Source of the DNA: a virus
Taxonomy: Duplodnaviria > Caudoviricetes
Strand: one strand, 5' to 3'
Length of the DNA: 64,000 bases
Virus record (IMG/VR): IMGVR_UViG_3300003375_000001
Location: 64,001 to 128,000 of that record
Within the stretch, counting starts at the first letter, position 1. The number at the start of each line of letters is the position of its first letter. The notes under the pieces are model-generated. The model saw only the letters and a program-made list of their open reading frames with translations. It searched no databases and was not told the origin of the DNA. Positions 61,182 through 64,000 of this stretch are shown piece by piece. A program made the position numbers and the translations under genes.

Positions 61182-61841
61182 ATGAAACATCGATTAAACC
61201 TACCAGGATTCGATTCCGACGTATGCTGGACAATAGACAAGACCCTAGAACTCTGCTATGGCCATAGGGTGTGGACGCAAGTTCTTGACGATAGATTTTC
61301 TAATGACCTAAAGTGTGCCTGCCGTCATCTACATGGACACGAAGCAAAGATTCAGGTTTACTTATCTGGATCAGAGCTGAATCCTCAAGGCATGCTGACG
61401 GACTTCCGTCATTTGGAATGGGCCAAGAAGTTGTTCAATAGCCTGATCGATCATCAATTTATTATGCACAAGGAAGACCCCTTGTTGCCTATCATTCTAG
61501 ACACCACTAAACCCGGAAGCTATAAGCCTGAGCCTCAGTTTTTAGATCAAGTGCCTCTAGGTAGCTGGACTACAGCCAGCAAGATGTTCCTAGGTACTAG
61601 AGTACTGTATAACGGAACTAACAACGCGGTAAACGAACTGTTTGACGGACTGTTAGTTGTAGACTTTGTTCCTACATCAGAAAACCTAGCCAAATGGGTT
61701 CACTCTATTGTCAACTTCCGTATGTATTCCTTGCAGGTCGCGTGCACCCGCGTGGACTGGTGGGAGACCCCAAAGAGTAGAAGCTCTCATGTTAATACAG
61801 AGTCAATCGCCTGGAATTCAGAGCCAACCTTTACCCTTTAG
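61182..61841 (+). CDS. queD: 6-carboxy-5,6,7,8-tetrahydropterin synthase
   Basis: LCYGHR, C.HLHGH, DF, .DH.F, PTSENLA, WETP.S. Confidence 0.9.
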   Translation: MKHRLNLPGFDSDVCWTIDKTLELCYGHRVWTQVLDDRFSNDLKCACRHLHGHEAKIQVYLSGSELNPQGMLTDFRHLEWAKKLFNSLIDHQFIMHKEDPLLPIILDTTKPGSYKPEPQFLDQVPLGSWTTASKMFLGTRVLYNGTNNAVNELFDGLLVVDFVPTSENLAKWVHSIVNFRMYSLQVACTRVDWWETPKSRSSHVNTESIAWNSEPTFTL

Positions 61842-61847
61842 TAGATT

Positions 61848-62399
61848 ATGGAAAACCACACTTTAACCAATGTCGAAAACGTATCTGCACGTATGTCTGA
61901 TACGATTTTTTCTGTCAAAGCCATAGTGCTGAGAGGTCTTCCAGGGTCTGGTAAGTCTACGTTGTCTAACTGGATAGTAGACACGTTGGCCTTGAAGGGG
62001 TTTACTCCGTTTCAGATTAACGCTGACTTTATTAGGTCAGGCCTTAATGCGCATCTGGGTTTTAGCCATGAGGATCGTATTCGTCAAGCAGAGTCTTTAG
62101 GTCATATAGCGAGGCTAGCCTTGTGCAACAAGTGTCTGCCCGTTGTTGACTTTGTTATGCCTACTGAGGAAACATTACACGCATTTACTAAAGGCTTCGG
62201 TACTGACAACTTCATGGTAGTGTCCATGCGCCCTTACCACGCCACAGACAAAGACAGATATGGGGATACGTCCGCTATATTCGAGGACGACGTTTCTAGC
62301 AGTTGGTACATATCTGACGACAACTGCCTTGAGCTATTCAAGTACAACTTCCAGCGTTACCCTGCCGACTTCTTTGTTCAACACCAATCACAAAATTAA
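61848..62399 (+). CDS. adenylylsulfate (APS) kinase-like P-loop kinase
   Basis: LRGLPGSGKSTL, NAD.IR.GLN..LGFS.EDR..Q...LG.IA.L, F..P; lacks the RDPKGLY lid of CysC. Confidence 0.75.
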   Translation: MENHTLTNVENVSARMSDTIFSVKAIVLRGLPGSGKSTLSNWIVDTLALKGFTPFQINADFIRSGLNAHLGFSHEDRIRQAESLGHIARLALCNKCLPVVDFVMPTEETLHAFTKGFGTDNFMVVSMRPYHATDKDRYGDTSAIFEDDVSSSWYISDDNCLELFKYNFQRYPADFFVQHQSQN

Positions 62400-62400
62400 C

Positions 62401-62835
62401 ATGACAAACTTAACTCGCAATAATCCTCGCATTTGGGTGACCTTTCAGCTTGAAGGCTTCCACAGGTACCCTGACGCACCGGACCAAGTAGCCTACTTGC
62501 GAAATGAACATCGACACATGTTCAACTTCAAGGTGACGTTGGAAGTCACACATGACAACCGTGAAGTTGAATTCCACATGTTTAGGTCAGAACTGATTAG
62601 TCTGTTTGGTAAGAACACCTTACAGATAGATCACAAGTCTTGCGAAATGCTAGCCGCCGACGTAATGAACTACCTGGATATGGCGTATTCAGGGCGCTTT
62701 GCTGAGGTAGAGGTATCAGAAGACGGAGAATGTGGTGCTGTGTTAACACGCCCTAACGTAGAAGACGTGCGTGACGTGGTGAACGACATGCTGGCAGAAC
62801 ACCGTAGGAACTCTCATGATTCATTCGGAGCGTGA
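62401..62835 (+). CDS. dpdL: QueD-like T-fold protein (DpdL-like)
   Basis: EGFHRYP..P..V.YLRNEHRHMF (LxxxHRHxF), DREVEF, SCE.LA, V.VSEDGE.GA; real start 62401. Confidence 0.65.
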   Translation: MTNLTRNNPRIWVTFQLEGFHRYPDAPDQVAYLRNEHRHMFNFKVTLEVTHDNREVEFHMFRSELISLFGKNTLQIDHKSCEMLAADVMNYLDMAYSGRFAEVEVSEDGECGAVLTRPNVEDVRDVVNDMLAEHRRNSHDSFGA

Positions 62836-64000
62836 ATACCATCAAGGCAAATCGCGCTTGGTATTTGCCGGACAAGAGTCACTTAACGGCTATTATCAAA
62901 TAGCCGTTAAGTTTGAAAAGAACAAAAACACGCAGACACTAGTTAGCCGAAACCCCAAGGTGCTAGAGATAAGGCTGCCTGATAGGACTGTGTACGTGTC
63001 GGGCAAGTCATCAAAAAGGTCTACAGTCCTTGATAGAGACGTTGATCTTATAGTGTCTACTAAACGGGACTTGAACCAGCATAAGGAAATGGGGACTGAC
63101 ATGCTTCTGTTCAATCCCATCCATGCGCCTCTTGCTATGGACACCCGTTCATACTTGCGTGAAGGCATAGACGTACTGGTCGACTCTGGAGGGTTTCAGC
63201 TAGCGCAAGGTACGTCAGACTTTGTGTCCCCATTGGAGACCGCTCAGTTCTACACTAAACATGCGTCAATAGGCATGGGGCTAGACTTCCCCTCTCCAGG
63301 TTTTATAGACAAGGCTCTATACGTGGAGAACTGTAGACTACAGGCCCTTAACAACGATTACATCCGTAGAAACATTCCTGACACCGTTAGTATGGCCCCC
63401 GTTGTTCACGGGGTTTCGCCTTTTACGCGCAAGCATTGCCTAGACACAGTTTTTAAGAAAGGCCGTGACAAGGCAATGGCACTCGCGGGCCTTATATCAA
63501 AAAGAACAGACTCGCCAGAGGCATTCAAACAGAGATTCGCGTGCATGGCTATGGTTCTAAATGAAACACGTCAGGACGTCATCTACTATCACGCTCTGGG
63601 AGCAACATCCCCTTGGATGCTGGCGTTGTACGCGCTGCTAACGAAGTCTAACTACGTGGTATCAATTGGTGGAGACTCCGTTAGTCACAGGCAGAATGCT
63701 ATCGGTGGGTCTTACAAGATACTACCGTACTTCAACGGTCCTGTCACCTTAACTCAACCGGTTACAACCAATACGCCTGCCCGACTCCCTTGTAGCTGCC
63801 CCGCGTGTGTAGCCGTAGGGGACGCTCGCATCTTGAGAGACTTTCGCATATCAGAGCTTCATCACTTGTATATGGCTAGTCATCAGAAGGTGTCCATAGA
63901 CAATTGCATTGACGCTTATATAAAGGGTCGGGTGTCGCGTGGGGAGATGTGGAAGTTTGTTATGGGCGATTCCAACCAAGGTTTCCGTACATTACCAAAC
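62816..64000 (+). CDS. dpdA: TGT/DpdA-family guanine transglycosylase, partial (runs off window; absent from ORF track)
   Basis: manually translated open frame from ATG 62816 (AGGA RBS) to the end without a stop: MLLFNPIH, VDSGGFQ, GLDFP, PVVHG, ALAG, YHALG, GGDS, CSCPAC...HH Zn site. Confidence 0.82.
   Translation, partial: MIHSEREYHQGKSRLVFAGQESLNGYYQIAVKFEKNKNTQTLVSRNPKVLEIRLPDRTVYVSGKSSKRSTVLDRDVDLIVSTKRDLNQHKEMGTDMLLFNPIHAPLAMDTRSYLREGIDVLVDSGGFQLAQGTSDFVSPLETAQFYTKHASIGMGLDFPSPGFIDKALYVENCRLQALNNDYIRRNIPDTVSMAPVVHGVSPFTRKHCLDTVFKKGRDKAMALAGLISKRTDSPEAFKQRFACMAMVLNETRQDVIYYHALGATSPWMLALYALLTKSNYVVSIGGDSVSHRQNAIGGSYKILPYFNGPVTLTQPVTTNTPARLPCSCPACVAVGDARILRDFRISELHHLYMASHQKVSIDNCIDAYIKGRVSRGEMWKFVMGDSNQGFRTLPN
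62881..62912 (+). other. perfect 14-bp hairpin inside the transglycosylase coding sequence
   Basis: ACTTAACGGCTATT-ATCA-AATAGCCGTTAAGT. Confidence 0.85.

What the first reader, a model, noticed from the sequence alone, without database searches (positions are those of the whole stretch)
62816..64000. Transglycosylase missed by the ORF track, with mixed bacterial and archaeal TGT/DpdA features
Seen: at least 395 codons with no stop, including about 75 aa ahead of the barrel. It keeps a TGT-like LLFNPIH strand, the DSGGFQ catalytic Asp and a CxCxxC...H Zn site. At the base pocket it has LDFP and YHALG, which resemble archaeal TGT/DpdA (LDIP, HLFG) rather than bacterial TGT (LDEC, YLMG). Inference: it inserts a small base (preQ0, CDG or DG) rather than preQ1. 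Whether the substrate is DNA, tRNA or free nucleotide cannot be read from the sequence.
Basis: partly seen in the sequence, partly recalled or inferred. Interest (0 to 1): 0.6.

Follow-up and report, generated by a model that had tools for sequence, protein, structure and literature searches.

The report
Divergent phage deazaguanine DNA transglycosylase gene
This is a real gene of a 238-kb freshwater jumbo phage for a very divergent guanine-swapping enzyme that most likely replaces guanine in the phage's own DNA with 7-deazaguanine, a known anti-restriction trick done here by an unclassified enzyme lineage with a predicted small helper protein.

Summary
The ORF starts at window 62816 and runs 216 nt past the window end (466 aa, P0001).

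Pfam, PHROGs and NCBIfam do not recognise it. A 72-sequence family profile hits archaeosine TGT (E 3e-16), and an AlphaFold model (pLDDT 92) has the TGT barrel fold (Z about 24-26). The catalytic Asp pair, the base-binding Asp and the Zn site are invariant.

It is the only TGT-like gene in a complete phage genome. That genome has FolE, QueD, QueE and a DpdL-type T-fold gene (motif LxxxHRHxF) directly upstream, and no QueC or QueF. This is the published gene set for 2'-deoxy-7-deazaguanine DNA.

Across 41 related loci, 22 have DpdL nearby, 10 have QueC and none has both.

The family is separate from the DpdA1, DpdA2 and DpdA3 references and from DUF6610 (DpdA4). It is widespread in jumbo phages (Motura, BCSR5, NCTB, GR7B).

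A conserved, translationally coupled 148-aa basic protein is predicted to dock on the extra N-terminal beta domain (ipSAE 0.66, best control 0.00).

Verdict: a DNA-guanine transglycosylase of a known kind, from an unclassified subfamily. DNA versus tRNA, and the exact base, remain inferred. Earlier scan notes cover this same genome, not other DNA.

The parts
62816..64000 (+). Transglycosylase gene: first 395 of 466 codons. It continues 216 nt beyond the window, to genome 128216.
   Evidence: ORF. Family profile against ArcTGT 1iq8, E 3.3e-16. AF2 model pLDDT 92.2. VIA Z 25.7 to QTRT1, 23.6 to ArcTGT, 23.4 to bacterial TGT.
62816..63085 (+). N-terminal beta-rich extension (aa 1-90), predicted docking platform for the small partner
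   Evidence: Secondary structure. Predicted interface residues 26-91.
63182..63199 (+). DSGGFQ (aa 123-128). D123 is the general acid/base; F127 is the base-gating aromatic residue.
   Evidence: Invariant D123/S124. Aligned to ArcTGT D95/F99. Roles taken from bDpdA and TGT.
63281..63292 (+). LDFP (aa 156-159). [quoted passage not shown]
   Evidence: D157 and P159 invariant. Aligned to ArcTGT L129-D130-I131-P132.
63401..63412 (+). VVHG (aa 196-199). His198 replaces the TGT Gln.
   Evidence: H198 is nearly invariant and G199 invariant. Aligned to ArcTGT Q169-G170. bDpdA has His181-Gly182 at this site.
63479..63499 (+). ALAGLIS (aa 222-228): loop after beta-6 that contacts the 7-substituent in TGTs
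   Evidence: Aligned to ArcTGT G195-G196-V197-V198-P199. Role of the loop. Variable within the family.
63584..63601 (+). YYHALG (aa 257-262). H259 partners the nucleophile; L261 stacks on the base.
   Evidence: H259 and G262 invariant, L261 nearly invariant. Aligned to ArcTGT H227/F229/G230. Cap10 H226/D248 pair.
63668..63691 (+). GGDSVSHR (aa 285-292). D287 is the covalent nucleophile. The motif is a signature of the DpdL-linked subclade.
   Evidence: D287 invariant. Aligned to ArcTGT D249. GGDSVSHR against (T/S)SD(S/A)S in QueC-linked members.
63791..63862 (+). Structural Zn site: C326, C328, C331 and H349
   Evidence: All four invariant. Aligned to the ArcTGT and TGT CxCxxC...H site.
62404..62835 (+). 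DpdL-type T-fold gene (proposed CDG decarboxylase). Its end overlaps the transglycosylase start by 20 nt.
   Evidence: Carries the motif L-RNE-HRH-M-F, which fits LxxxHRHxF as defined. phrog_17812. 47% identical to ACP17 DpdL, 51% to BCSR5, 29% to phiST.
61848..62399 (+). APS-kinase-like P-loop gene between queD and dpdL
   Evidence: PF01583, E 1.5e-13. NCBIfam apsK, 3e-13. Role unknown.
61182..61841 (+). QueD (6-carboxytetrahydropterin synthase) with the CxxxHGH motif
   Evidence: PF01242, E 2e-22. TIGR03367. phrog_2389.

Best explanation
The gene encodes a catalytically intact member of the tRNA-guanine transglycosylase superfamily that works on the phage's own double-stranded DNA, that is, a DpdA-type DNA-guanine transglycosylase.

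Proposed mechanism:
1. FolE, QueD and QueE of the same phage convert GTP to 7-carboxy-7-deazaguanine (CDG).
2. The DpdL-type T-fold enzyme encoded immediately upstream is proposed to decarboxylate CDG to 7-deazaguanine (DG).
3. The transglycosylase flips out a guanine.
4. Asp287 attacks C1' and forms a covalent enzyme-DNA intermediate, while Asp123 protonates the leaving guanine.
5. The incoming deazapurine is held by Asp157, His198 and Leu261/Phe127. It attacks through N9 and leaves 2'-deoxy-7-deazaguanosine in the DNA. This should blunt host restriction.

A 148-aa basic protein is encoded right after the gene, with stop and start overlapping as ATGA. It is predicted to bind the enlarged N-terminal beta domain next to the Zn site, and probably helps DNA engagement.

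What is shown: fold, catalytic residues, gene content, co-occurrence.
What is inferred: DNA as substrate, DG as the base, the role of the partner.
For: Fold and residues:
- AF2 model pLDDT 92.2, pTM 0.92.
- VIA Z 25.7 to QTRT1 7nq4 (rmsd 3.6, 321 aa), 23.6 to ArcTGT 1j2b, 23.4 to bacterial TGT.
- Family profile against ArcTGT, E 3.3e-16.
- Catalytic and Zn residues invariant in 72 sequences.

Pathway:
- FolE, QueD, QueE, DpdL motif and homology.
- No QueC, QueF, second TGT or DUF6610 in a complete 238,517-bp genome with direct terminal repeats.
- Cui et al. 2023 found DpdL in phages with DpdA+FolE+QueD+QueE and no QueC, and measured 100% dDG in phiST.

Co-occurrence:
- All six isolate phages carrying a family member encode FolE and a QueE-like gene.
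- Five of the six encode QueC. The sixth, BCSR5, encodes DpdL instead.
- Of 41 loci, 22 have DpdL within 10 kb, 10 have QueC and 0 have both.
- All DpdL-linked members tested fall in one subclade (SH-aLRT 98).

DNA rather than tRNA:
- The gene sits in a conserved position among primase, sigma factor, SSB and RecA genes in jumbo phages.
- There are no PUA or C-terminal tRNA-binding domains.
- His198 matches bDpdA His181.
- The phage has only 4 tRNAs and none has a GUN anticodon.
- Iyer et al. 2021 predicted DNA incorporation for the Motura homolog.

Partner:
- ipSAE 0.66 (runs 0.53, 0.66, 0.72) against a best control of 0.00. That mark was reached by 58 of 80 solved complexes and 2 of 110 mismatched pairs. 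Partner pLDDT is at least 49, and contact agreement is at least 45%.
- The partner is conserved directly downstream in BCSR5 and in 12 metagenomic loci.
Against: - No biochemical or mass-spectrometry data exist for this phage or for any member of this family.
- DpdL's decarboxylase activity is only proposed. Co-expression of dpdL and dpdA from phiST and ACP17 in E. coli gave no dDG.
- The protein keeps the N-terminal beta lid typical of tRNA TGTs, which bacterial DpdA lacks. Its nearest solved relative by profile is a tRNA enzyme.
- A GT4-like gene, a PIG-L-like deacetylase and a HAD phosphatase travel with DpdL and this enzyme in many phages. The base finally present in DNA may therefore be more than DG.
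- Differences in pocket residues between DpdL-linked and QueC-linked members cannot be separated from phylogeny.
- The partner alone folds poorly (pLDDT 43).
Confidence: 0.6

Rival explanations
1. Same DNA transglycosylase, but the base it inserts is not plain DG. It could be CDG itself, or a DpdL/GT4/PIG-L-dependent derivative such as a sugar-bearing deazapurine. Alternatively DG is inserted and then decorated on the DNA.
For: A GT4-like gene lies directly upstream of the transglycosylase in most DpdL-type loci. It co-occurs with DpdL even in DpdA2-type phages (X1, ACP17). PIG-L-like and HAD genes also travel with it. dpdL+dpdA alone gave no dDG in E. coli, and the authors suggested missing enzymes. 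VH7D DpdA2 can insert CDG at low efficiency.
Against: phiST has DpdL without GT or PIG-L and carries 100% dDG. 7-Deazaguanine offers no obvious glycosyl acceptor at C7. No enzyme for amide or ester formation on CDG was identified in the cluster.
Confidence: 0.22
2. A tRNA-guanine transglycosylase that modifies host or phage tRNAs (archaeosine-like position 15 or wobble position 34) to tune translation.
For: The best solved-structure match by profile is ArcTGT. It keeps a TGT-like N-terminal beta lid. The GenBank annotation of the Motura homolog is 'tRNA guanine transglycosylase'.
Against: No PUA or C1-C3 domains. The bacterial Q-pocket motifs LDEC, GGLAVGE and YLMG are absent. The phage has four tRNAs and none has a GUN anticodon. 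DG is not a known tRNA base. The gene is embedded in DNA replication and recombination genes and strictly linked to de novo deazapurine synthesis in phages.
Confidence: 0.08
3. It exchanges the base on a free (deoxy)nucleotide or nucleoside, so that deaza-dGTP is incorporated during replication (a pre-replicative route).
For: A P-loop kinase-like gene and a HAD phosphatase lie in the cluster. A deazapurine nucleoside was reported in cells infected by phage CP220 (cited).
Against: All characterised TGT and DpdA enzymes act on polynucleotides. Cui et al. argue that the modification is post-replicative in all DpdA-encoding viruses. No dGTP-depleting enzyme was identified next to the gene here.
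Confidence: 0.06
4. A Cap10-like TGT-fold protein that handles a protein-linked deazaguanine, with the small neighbour as the protein substrate.
For: TGT-fold Cap10 binds a protein conjugated to 7-amido-7-deazaguanine and uses a His/Asp pair. P0001 has H259/D287 and a predicted protein partner.
Against: No QueC/Cap9-like ligase in the genome. The partner's N-terminus lacks the M(G/S)G(G/S)GG motif. The predicted interface is at the N-terminal domain, not in the active site. The context is a phage, not CBASS.
Confidence: 0.03

Closest known systems
DpdL-type 7-deazaguanine (dDG) DNA modification systems of phages (Cellulophaga phage phiST, Acidovorax phage ACP17; Cui et al. 2023, PMC10516641)
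   Same: Same gene set: FolE, QueD, QueE and DpdL (LxxxHRHxF) plus one TGT-superfamily transglycosylase, and no QueC. The DpdL here is 47% identical to ACP17 DpdL and 29% to phiST DpdL.
   Different: The transglycosylase is of a different lineage. phiST uses the 259-aa DpdA3 (1.7 bits against the family profile; hhalign probability 10%). ACP17 uses DpdA2 (40 bits; a DpdA2 HMM gives P0001 only 0.7 bits). Here there is also a small partner gene, and the cluster is interrupted by sugar- and sulfate-type genes.
Archaeosine tRNA-guanine transglycosylase (ArcTGT, P. horikoshii, PDB 1iq8/1j2b)
   Same: Best profile match (E 3.3e-16, 62 bits). Shares the LDxP and xHxxG motifs, the catalytic Asp95/Asp249 equivalents and the Zn site. 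VIA Z 23.6.
   Different: No C1-C3/PUA tRNA-binding domains. Gln169 is replaced by His198. The N-terminal beta domain is enlarged. The context is a phage DNA-modification cluster.
Bacterial DpdA (Salmonella Montevideo, PDB 7ui4; PMC10164549)
   Same: Same predicted chemistry. It has His at the Gln position (His181, matching His198), a Phe/Leu base sandwich, three invariant Asp residues and a CxCxxC...H Zn site.
   Different: Only 23 bits to the family profile. bDpdA lacks the N-terminal beta lid, has a 70-residue helical bundle in Ins8 and needs the DpdB ATPase. Here there is a large N-terminal beta domain and a different, small predicted partner.
Unclassified TGT-like proteins of jumbo phages (Achromobacter phage Motura QDH83434, Burkholderia phage BCSR5 QRE00062, Vibrio phage GR7B, phage NCTB, P. 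putida Illi-2 group)
   Same: Same family: 441, 394 and 304 bits to the profile for BCSR5, Motura and GR7B. Foldseek TM 0.83-0.85 to the BCSR5 and Motura models. BCSR5 shares the DpdL, GT, PIG-L and HAD genes and the partner gene.
   Different: Only 22-32% identical. Motura, GR7B, NCTB, Illi-2 and PhiXhv-12 encode QueC (a preQ0/G+-type route) instead of DpdL. Apart from Motura, they carry a different, SWIM-like small downstream gene.

Membership tests
TGT superfamily (queuine/archaeosine tRNA-ribosyltransferase fold, Pfam PF01702) | (beta/alpha)8 TGT barrel fold | tested here: met
   AF2 pLDDT 92.2. VIA Z 25.7 (7nq4, rmsd 3.6, 321 aa), 23.6 (1j2b), 23.4 (bacterial TGT). Foldseek E 4e-11.
TGT superfamily (queuine/archaeosine tRNA-ribosyltransferase fold, Pfam PF01702) | Catalytic Asp pair, base-binding Asp and CxCxxC...H zinc site | tested here: met
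   D123, D157, D287, C326, C328, C331 and H349 are invariant in 72 sequences. They align to ArcTGT D95, D130, D249 and its Zn motif.
TGT superfamily (queuine/archaeosine tRNA-ribosyltransferase fold, Pfam PF01702) | Score above the Pfam PF01702 gathering threshold | tested here: not met
   No Pfam hit even at E<=10. Only 20 of 72 relatives hit PF01702, best E 1.7e-8. This is a failure of HMM sensitivity, not of the fold.
Archaeosine TGT (ArcTGT) | C-terminal C1-C3/PUA tRNA-binding domains | tested here: not met
   466 aa. No PUA or TGT_C Pfam hit. Long relatives also lack PUA.
Bacterial tRNA TGT (Q34) | preQ1 pocket motifs (LDEC, GGLAVGE, YLMG) and a supply of preQ1 (QueF) | tested here: not met
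   The motifs here are LDFP, AGLIS and YHALG. No QueF or QueC in the genome. E. coli Tgt scores 20.6 bits and lies outside the family clade.
DpdA-type DNA-guanine transglycosylases (functional class) | Encoded with 7-deazaguanine base-synthesis genes in a virus or Dpd island | tested here: met
   queD, dpdL, queE and folE lie within 11 kb. The same linkage holds in all isolate relatives and in most of the 41 loci.
DpdA-type DNA-guanine transglycosylases (functional class) | Base exchange on DNA demonstrated | not testable with these tools
   Needs a [14C]guanine or deazapurine exchange assay, or LC-MS of virion DNA.
DpdA1 (phage 9g type) | Sequence membership | tested here: not met
   9g DpdA scores 9.6 bits against the family profile and sits on a long branch outside the family.
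DpdA2 (Vibrio phage nt-1/VH7D, ACP17 type) | Sequence membership | tested here: not met
   Family profile against DpdA2: 20-40 bits. DpdA2 HMM against P0001: 0.7 bits. DpdA2 forms a separate clade (SH-aLRT 100) on a branch of 2.2. P0001 tblastn does not reach nt-1 or ACP17. Only four DpdA2 references were available.
DpdA3 (phiST/CP220 type) | Sequence membership | tested here: not met
   phiST DpdA3 (259 aa): 1.7 bits. hhalign E 0.003, probability 9.9%. Foldseek E 4e-4, TM 0.29/0.46. CP220 was not tested.
DpdA4 (archaeal virus type, Pfam DUF6610 PF20314) | Match to PF20314 | tested here: not met
   No hit in P0001 or anywhere in the genome.
DpdL-dependent dDG pathway | FolE+QueD+QueE present, QueC absent, T-fold protein with LxxxHRHxF | tested here: met

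The most novel reading that the evidence does not exclude
This family is a sixth, undescribed DpdA subfamily typical of jumbo phages. It descends from an ArcTGT-like ancestor and works as a heterodimer. A fast-evolving small basic subunit (the type found here, or a SWIM-zinc-finger type in QueC-linked phages) docks on a family-specific N-terminal beta domain and delivers the enzyme to DNA. The DpdL-linked subclade (signature GGDSVSHR) inserts 7-deazaguanine, or a GT4/PIG-L-dependent derivative not yet seen in DNA.
Probability: 0.35. Interest if true: 0.7.

Novelty: new variant of a known kind. Interest (0 to 1): 0.5.

Why it matters
- 7-Deazaguanine DNA modifications protect phages from restriction enzymes and CRISPR nucleases. 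The enzymes that install them are tools for making nuclease-resistant DNA.
- This lineage is invisible to Pfam, PHROGs and NCBIfam. It is nevertheless common in large environmental and isolate phages, with at least 222 clusters at 50% identity. Current surveys therefore probably undercount deazaguanine-modified jumbo phages.
- The strict either/or between DpdL and QueC around one enzyme family offers a natural experiment on how a TGT pocket is retuned from preQ0 to DG.
- The predicted small partner may explain why dpdL+dpdA pairs failed in heterologous tests. It gives a concrete extra component to add.

Tried and rejected
- Pfam, PHROGs and NCBIfam scans of P0001 gave nothing. A single-sequence PDB search gave only E 0.23.
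Presence in cellular genomes and prophages was therefore not tested.
- ArcTGT, QTRT1 and bDpdA sequences could not be put in the tree because no reference was retrievable. Their relation rests on profile scores and structure alone.
- A guessed accession for the DpdA4 virus returned the wrong virus, HGTV-1. DpdA4 was tested only through Pfam DUF6610.
- Supplementary tables of Cui et al. 2023 are not held. I could not see how BCSR5- or Motura-type enzymes were labelled there.
- A word-index search for the 148-aa partner found only itself. The Atlas search gave low-confidence GNAT and PBP look-alikes, which I discarded. The AF2 model of the partner alone was poor, pLDDT 43.
- L-type and SWIM-type partners show no detectable homology.
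- The APS-kinase-like protein against the phiST ATPase gp041: no similarity.
- Pocket residues as predictors of DG versus preQ0: the differences exist but track phylogeny, so I rejected them as evidence.
- No model coordinates were available for a pocket-volume analysis.
- Sequencing runs: one freshwater metagenome holds the stretch and is probably its source. No RNA holder is listed.
- A search for 'DpdA5' in the literature returned nothing.
Full report
**The sequence.** The window is bases 64001-128000 of a 238,517-bp IMG/VR virus record with direct terminal repeats, estimated 100% complete. It comes from a freshwater metagenome. An ATG at window 62816 opens a frame with no stop up to the window end. 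In the genome it runs to 128216 and encodes 466 aa (P0001). An AGGA lies 8-11 nt upstream. The start overlaps the end of the preceding gene by 20 nt, and the stop overlaps the next gene's ATG as ATGA.

**Is it a gene, and of what family?** Metagenomic relatives of 40-63% identity cover the full length. An exhaustive phmmer search finds 222 clusters at 50% identity with E<=1e-3, 92 of them at E<=1e-10. P0001 itself matches nothing in Pfam (even at E<=10), PHROGs or NCBIfam. PF01702 finds nothing in the whole genome. A profile built from 72 family members gives these matches:
- archaeosine TGT 1iq8: E 3.3e-16, over profile positions 81-441
- eukaryotic QTRT1: E 2e-9
- bacterial DpdA 7ui4: E 3e-4
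- bacterial TGT: E 5e-4

The AlphaFold2 model is confident (pLDDT 92.2, pTM 0.92). It aligns to all TGT structures at Z 23-26 (Foldseek). Structure does not discriminate among the TGT branches.

**Active site.** D123, S124, D157, P159, G199, H259, G262, D287, C326, C328, C331 and H349 are invariant across the 72 sequences. The HMM alignment to 1iq8 gives these pairs:

| P0001 | ArcTGT 1iq8 |
|---|---|
| D123 / F127 | D95 / F99 |
| L-D157-F-P159 | L129-D130-I131-P132 |
| H198-G199 | Q169-G170 |
| A224-G225-L226-I227-S228 | G195-G196-V197-V198-P199 |
| H259 / L261 / G262 | H227 / F229 / G230 |
| D287 | D249 |

According to the bacterial DpdA structure paper, the roles are as follows. The first Asp is the general acid/base and the last is the covalent nucleophile. 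D130 and His181 read the Watson-Crick edge, and Phe99 and Leu236 sandwich the base. The Gly-rich loop after strand 6 contacts the 7-substituent. P0001 therefore has a complete catalytic apparatus. Like bacterial DpdA, it has His where tRNA TGTs have Gln. The His of YHALG corresponds to the hydrogen-bond partner of the nucleophile (the Cap10 H226/D248 pair), not to a base-contacting residue.

**Which branch?** Scores against the family profile:

| Sequence | Bits |
|---|---|
| BCSR5 | 441 |
| Motura | 394 |
| GR7B | 304 |
| ArcTGT | 62 |
| QTRT1 | 40 |
| DpdA2 of ACP17 | 40 |
| DpdA2 of X1 / nt-1 | 27 |
| bDpdA | 23 |
| E. coli Tgt | 21 |
| DpdA2 of VH7D | 20 |
| DpdA1 of 9g | 9.6 |
| DpdA3 of phiST | 1.7 |

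- A DpdA2 HMM gives P0001 0.7 bits.
- hhalign against phiST DpdA3 gives probability 10%.
- DUF6610 (DpdA4) is absent.
- In an IQ-TREE tree of 52 rows, the 45 family rows form one group (SH-aLRT 81). DpdA2 is a separate clade (100) on a long branch. DpdA1, DpdA3 and E. coli Tgt are long branches outside. ArcTGT could not be included.

The enzyme belongs to none of the described DpdA subfamilies I could test. I could not see how the authors' supplementary tables label its relatives. The Motura homolog has been noted before as a predicted DNA transglycosylase.

**Context and the likely base.** The gene order upstream is queD (CxxxHGH), an APS-kinase-like gene, then a 143-aa T-fold gene.
- The T-fold gene carries exactly the DpdL motif LxxxHRHxF defined by Cui et al..
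- It is 47% identical to ACP17 DpdL, 51% to BCSR5 DpdL and 29% to phiST DpdL.
- queE and folE lie about 7.4 kb (queE) and 8.2 kb (folE) downstream of the gene's end.
- The genome has no QueC or QueF and only one TGT-like gene.

This is the gene set that Cui et al. associate with 2'-deoxy-7-deazaguanine. phiST, which has it, is 100% dDG.

All six isolate phages with a family member encode FolE and a QueE-like gene. Five of them (Motura, Illi-2, PhiXhv-12, NCTB, GR7B) encode QueC; only BCSR5 has DpdL instead.

I scanned 41 loci with HMMs built here: 32 from IMG/VR, 3 other metagenomic and 6 from isolates. Within 10 kb, 22 have DpdL, 10 have QueC, 9 have neither and none has both. All DpdL-linked members placed in the tree fall in one subclade (SH-aLRT 98). 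That subclade is marked by GGDSVSHR around the nucleophile, against (T/S)SD(S/A)S in QueC-linked members. This signature tracks phylogeny, so I do not use it as evidence for specificity.

**DNA or tRNA?** No experiment exists. The following favour DNA:
- the strict linkage to de novo deazapurine synthesis in phages
- a conserved position among primase, sigma-factor, SSB and RecA/UvsX genes in jumbo phages
- the absence of PUA-type tRNA-binding domains
- the DpdA-like His198
- a phage tRNA set (Phe-GAA, Leu-TAA, Arg-TCT, Met-CAT) with no Q-type anticodon
- the fact that DG is known only from DNA

The following favour tRNA:
- the ArcTGT-like profile
- the retained N-terminal beta lid, which bacterial DpdA lacks

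**The N-terminal domain and a partner.** The first ~90 residues form a beta-rich extension. The next gene encodes a 148-aa basic protein (P0174).
- It is conserved immediately downstream in BCSR5 and 12 metagenomic loci.
- Most QueC-linked phages (Motura is the exception) carry instead a small protein with a CxC...CxH (SWIM-like) motif at the same place.
- A complex prediction scored 0.66 (three runs: 0.53, 0.66, 0.72) against a best control of 0.00. That mark was reached by 58 of 80 solved complexes and 2 of 110 mismatched pairs.
- Partner pLDDT was at least 49 and contact agreement at least 45%.
- The interface joins enzyme residues 26-91 and 319-342 (beside the Zn site) to partner residues 19-23, 56-66, 72-81 and 110-123.
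- The partner alone folds poorly.

This supports binding but does not show it. It gives the extra N-terminal domain a plausible role.

**Open point.** A GT4-like gene sits directly upstream of the transglycosylase in most DpdL-type loci, and accompanies DpdL even in DpdA2 phages (X1, ACP17). PIG-L-like and HAD genes often join it. phiST lacks them and still has dDG. They may decorate the base or the DNA further. Other notes of this scan treat that cassette.

**Verdict.** The gene is a DpdA-type transglycosylase of a DpdL (DG) pathway, from an unclassified jumbo-phage lineage with a predicted small partner. It is a variant of a known kind rather than a new kind of system.

Noticed in passing
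just beyond the window: genome 128213-128659 (L005:213-659): A 148-aa basic ORF whose ATG overlaps the transglycosylase stop (ATGA). It is conserved downstream of the enzyme in BCSR5 and 12 metagenomic loci, has no family match and folds poorly alone. It is predicted to bind the enzyme's N-terminal domain.
   Followed up: yes
L009:10556-11020, L019:9565-10017, L020:9308-9712, L021:9505-10116; own genome 167501-168523 (-): QueC-linked relatives carry a different small gene directly after the transglycosylase, with a CxC...CxH (SWIM-like) motif. The window's own phage has a 340-aa homolog of this elsewhere in the genome (50.7 bits).
   Followed up: partly
L005:5987-7147 (genome 133987-135147) and L002, L012, L018, L022-L028, L042-L050: A GT4-like gene lies directly upstream of, and often overlaps, the transglycosylase in most DpdL-type loci. 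It also occurs in the DpdA2-type phages X1 (51% identical) and ACP17 (24%). A PIG-L-like deacetylase and a HAD_PNKP phosphatase often accompany it. DpdL and QueC never co-occur (22 / 10 / 0 both, of 41 loci).
   Followed up: partly
L051:9371-12881 and L052:7453-10963: Three tandem paralogs of the transglycosylase family lie side by side in a QueC-type cluster of an IMG/VR contig.
   Followed up: no
P0152 (796 aa), P0161 (981 aa): Two distant family members are interrupted by inteins with LAGLIDADG homing endonuclease domains.
   Followed up: no
L016:11785-12597: The closest long-contig relative (54% identical enzyme, 238-kb contig) has a Sulfotransfer_2 gene two genes downstream of the transglycosylase. 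The window's phage has an APS-kinase-like gene at 61848-62399.
   Followed up: no
L019 (Pseudomonas phage Illi-2, PP496436.1): The annotated CDS of the Illi-2 homolog starts about 220 nt downstream of where the tblastn match and the open frame begin. The deposited gene model looks 5'-truncated.
   Followed up: no
L008:7070-8956 (Achromobacter phage Motura): In Motura the family member is preceded by QueC and an asparagine-synthetase-like amidotransferase. This suggests a G+- or ADG-type product made by a split Gat/QueC arrangement.
   Followed up: no
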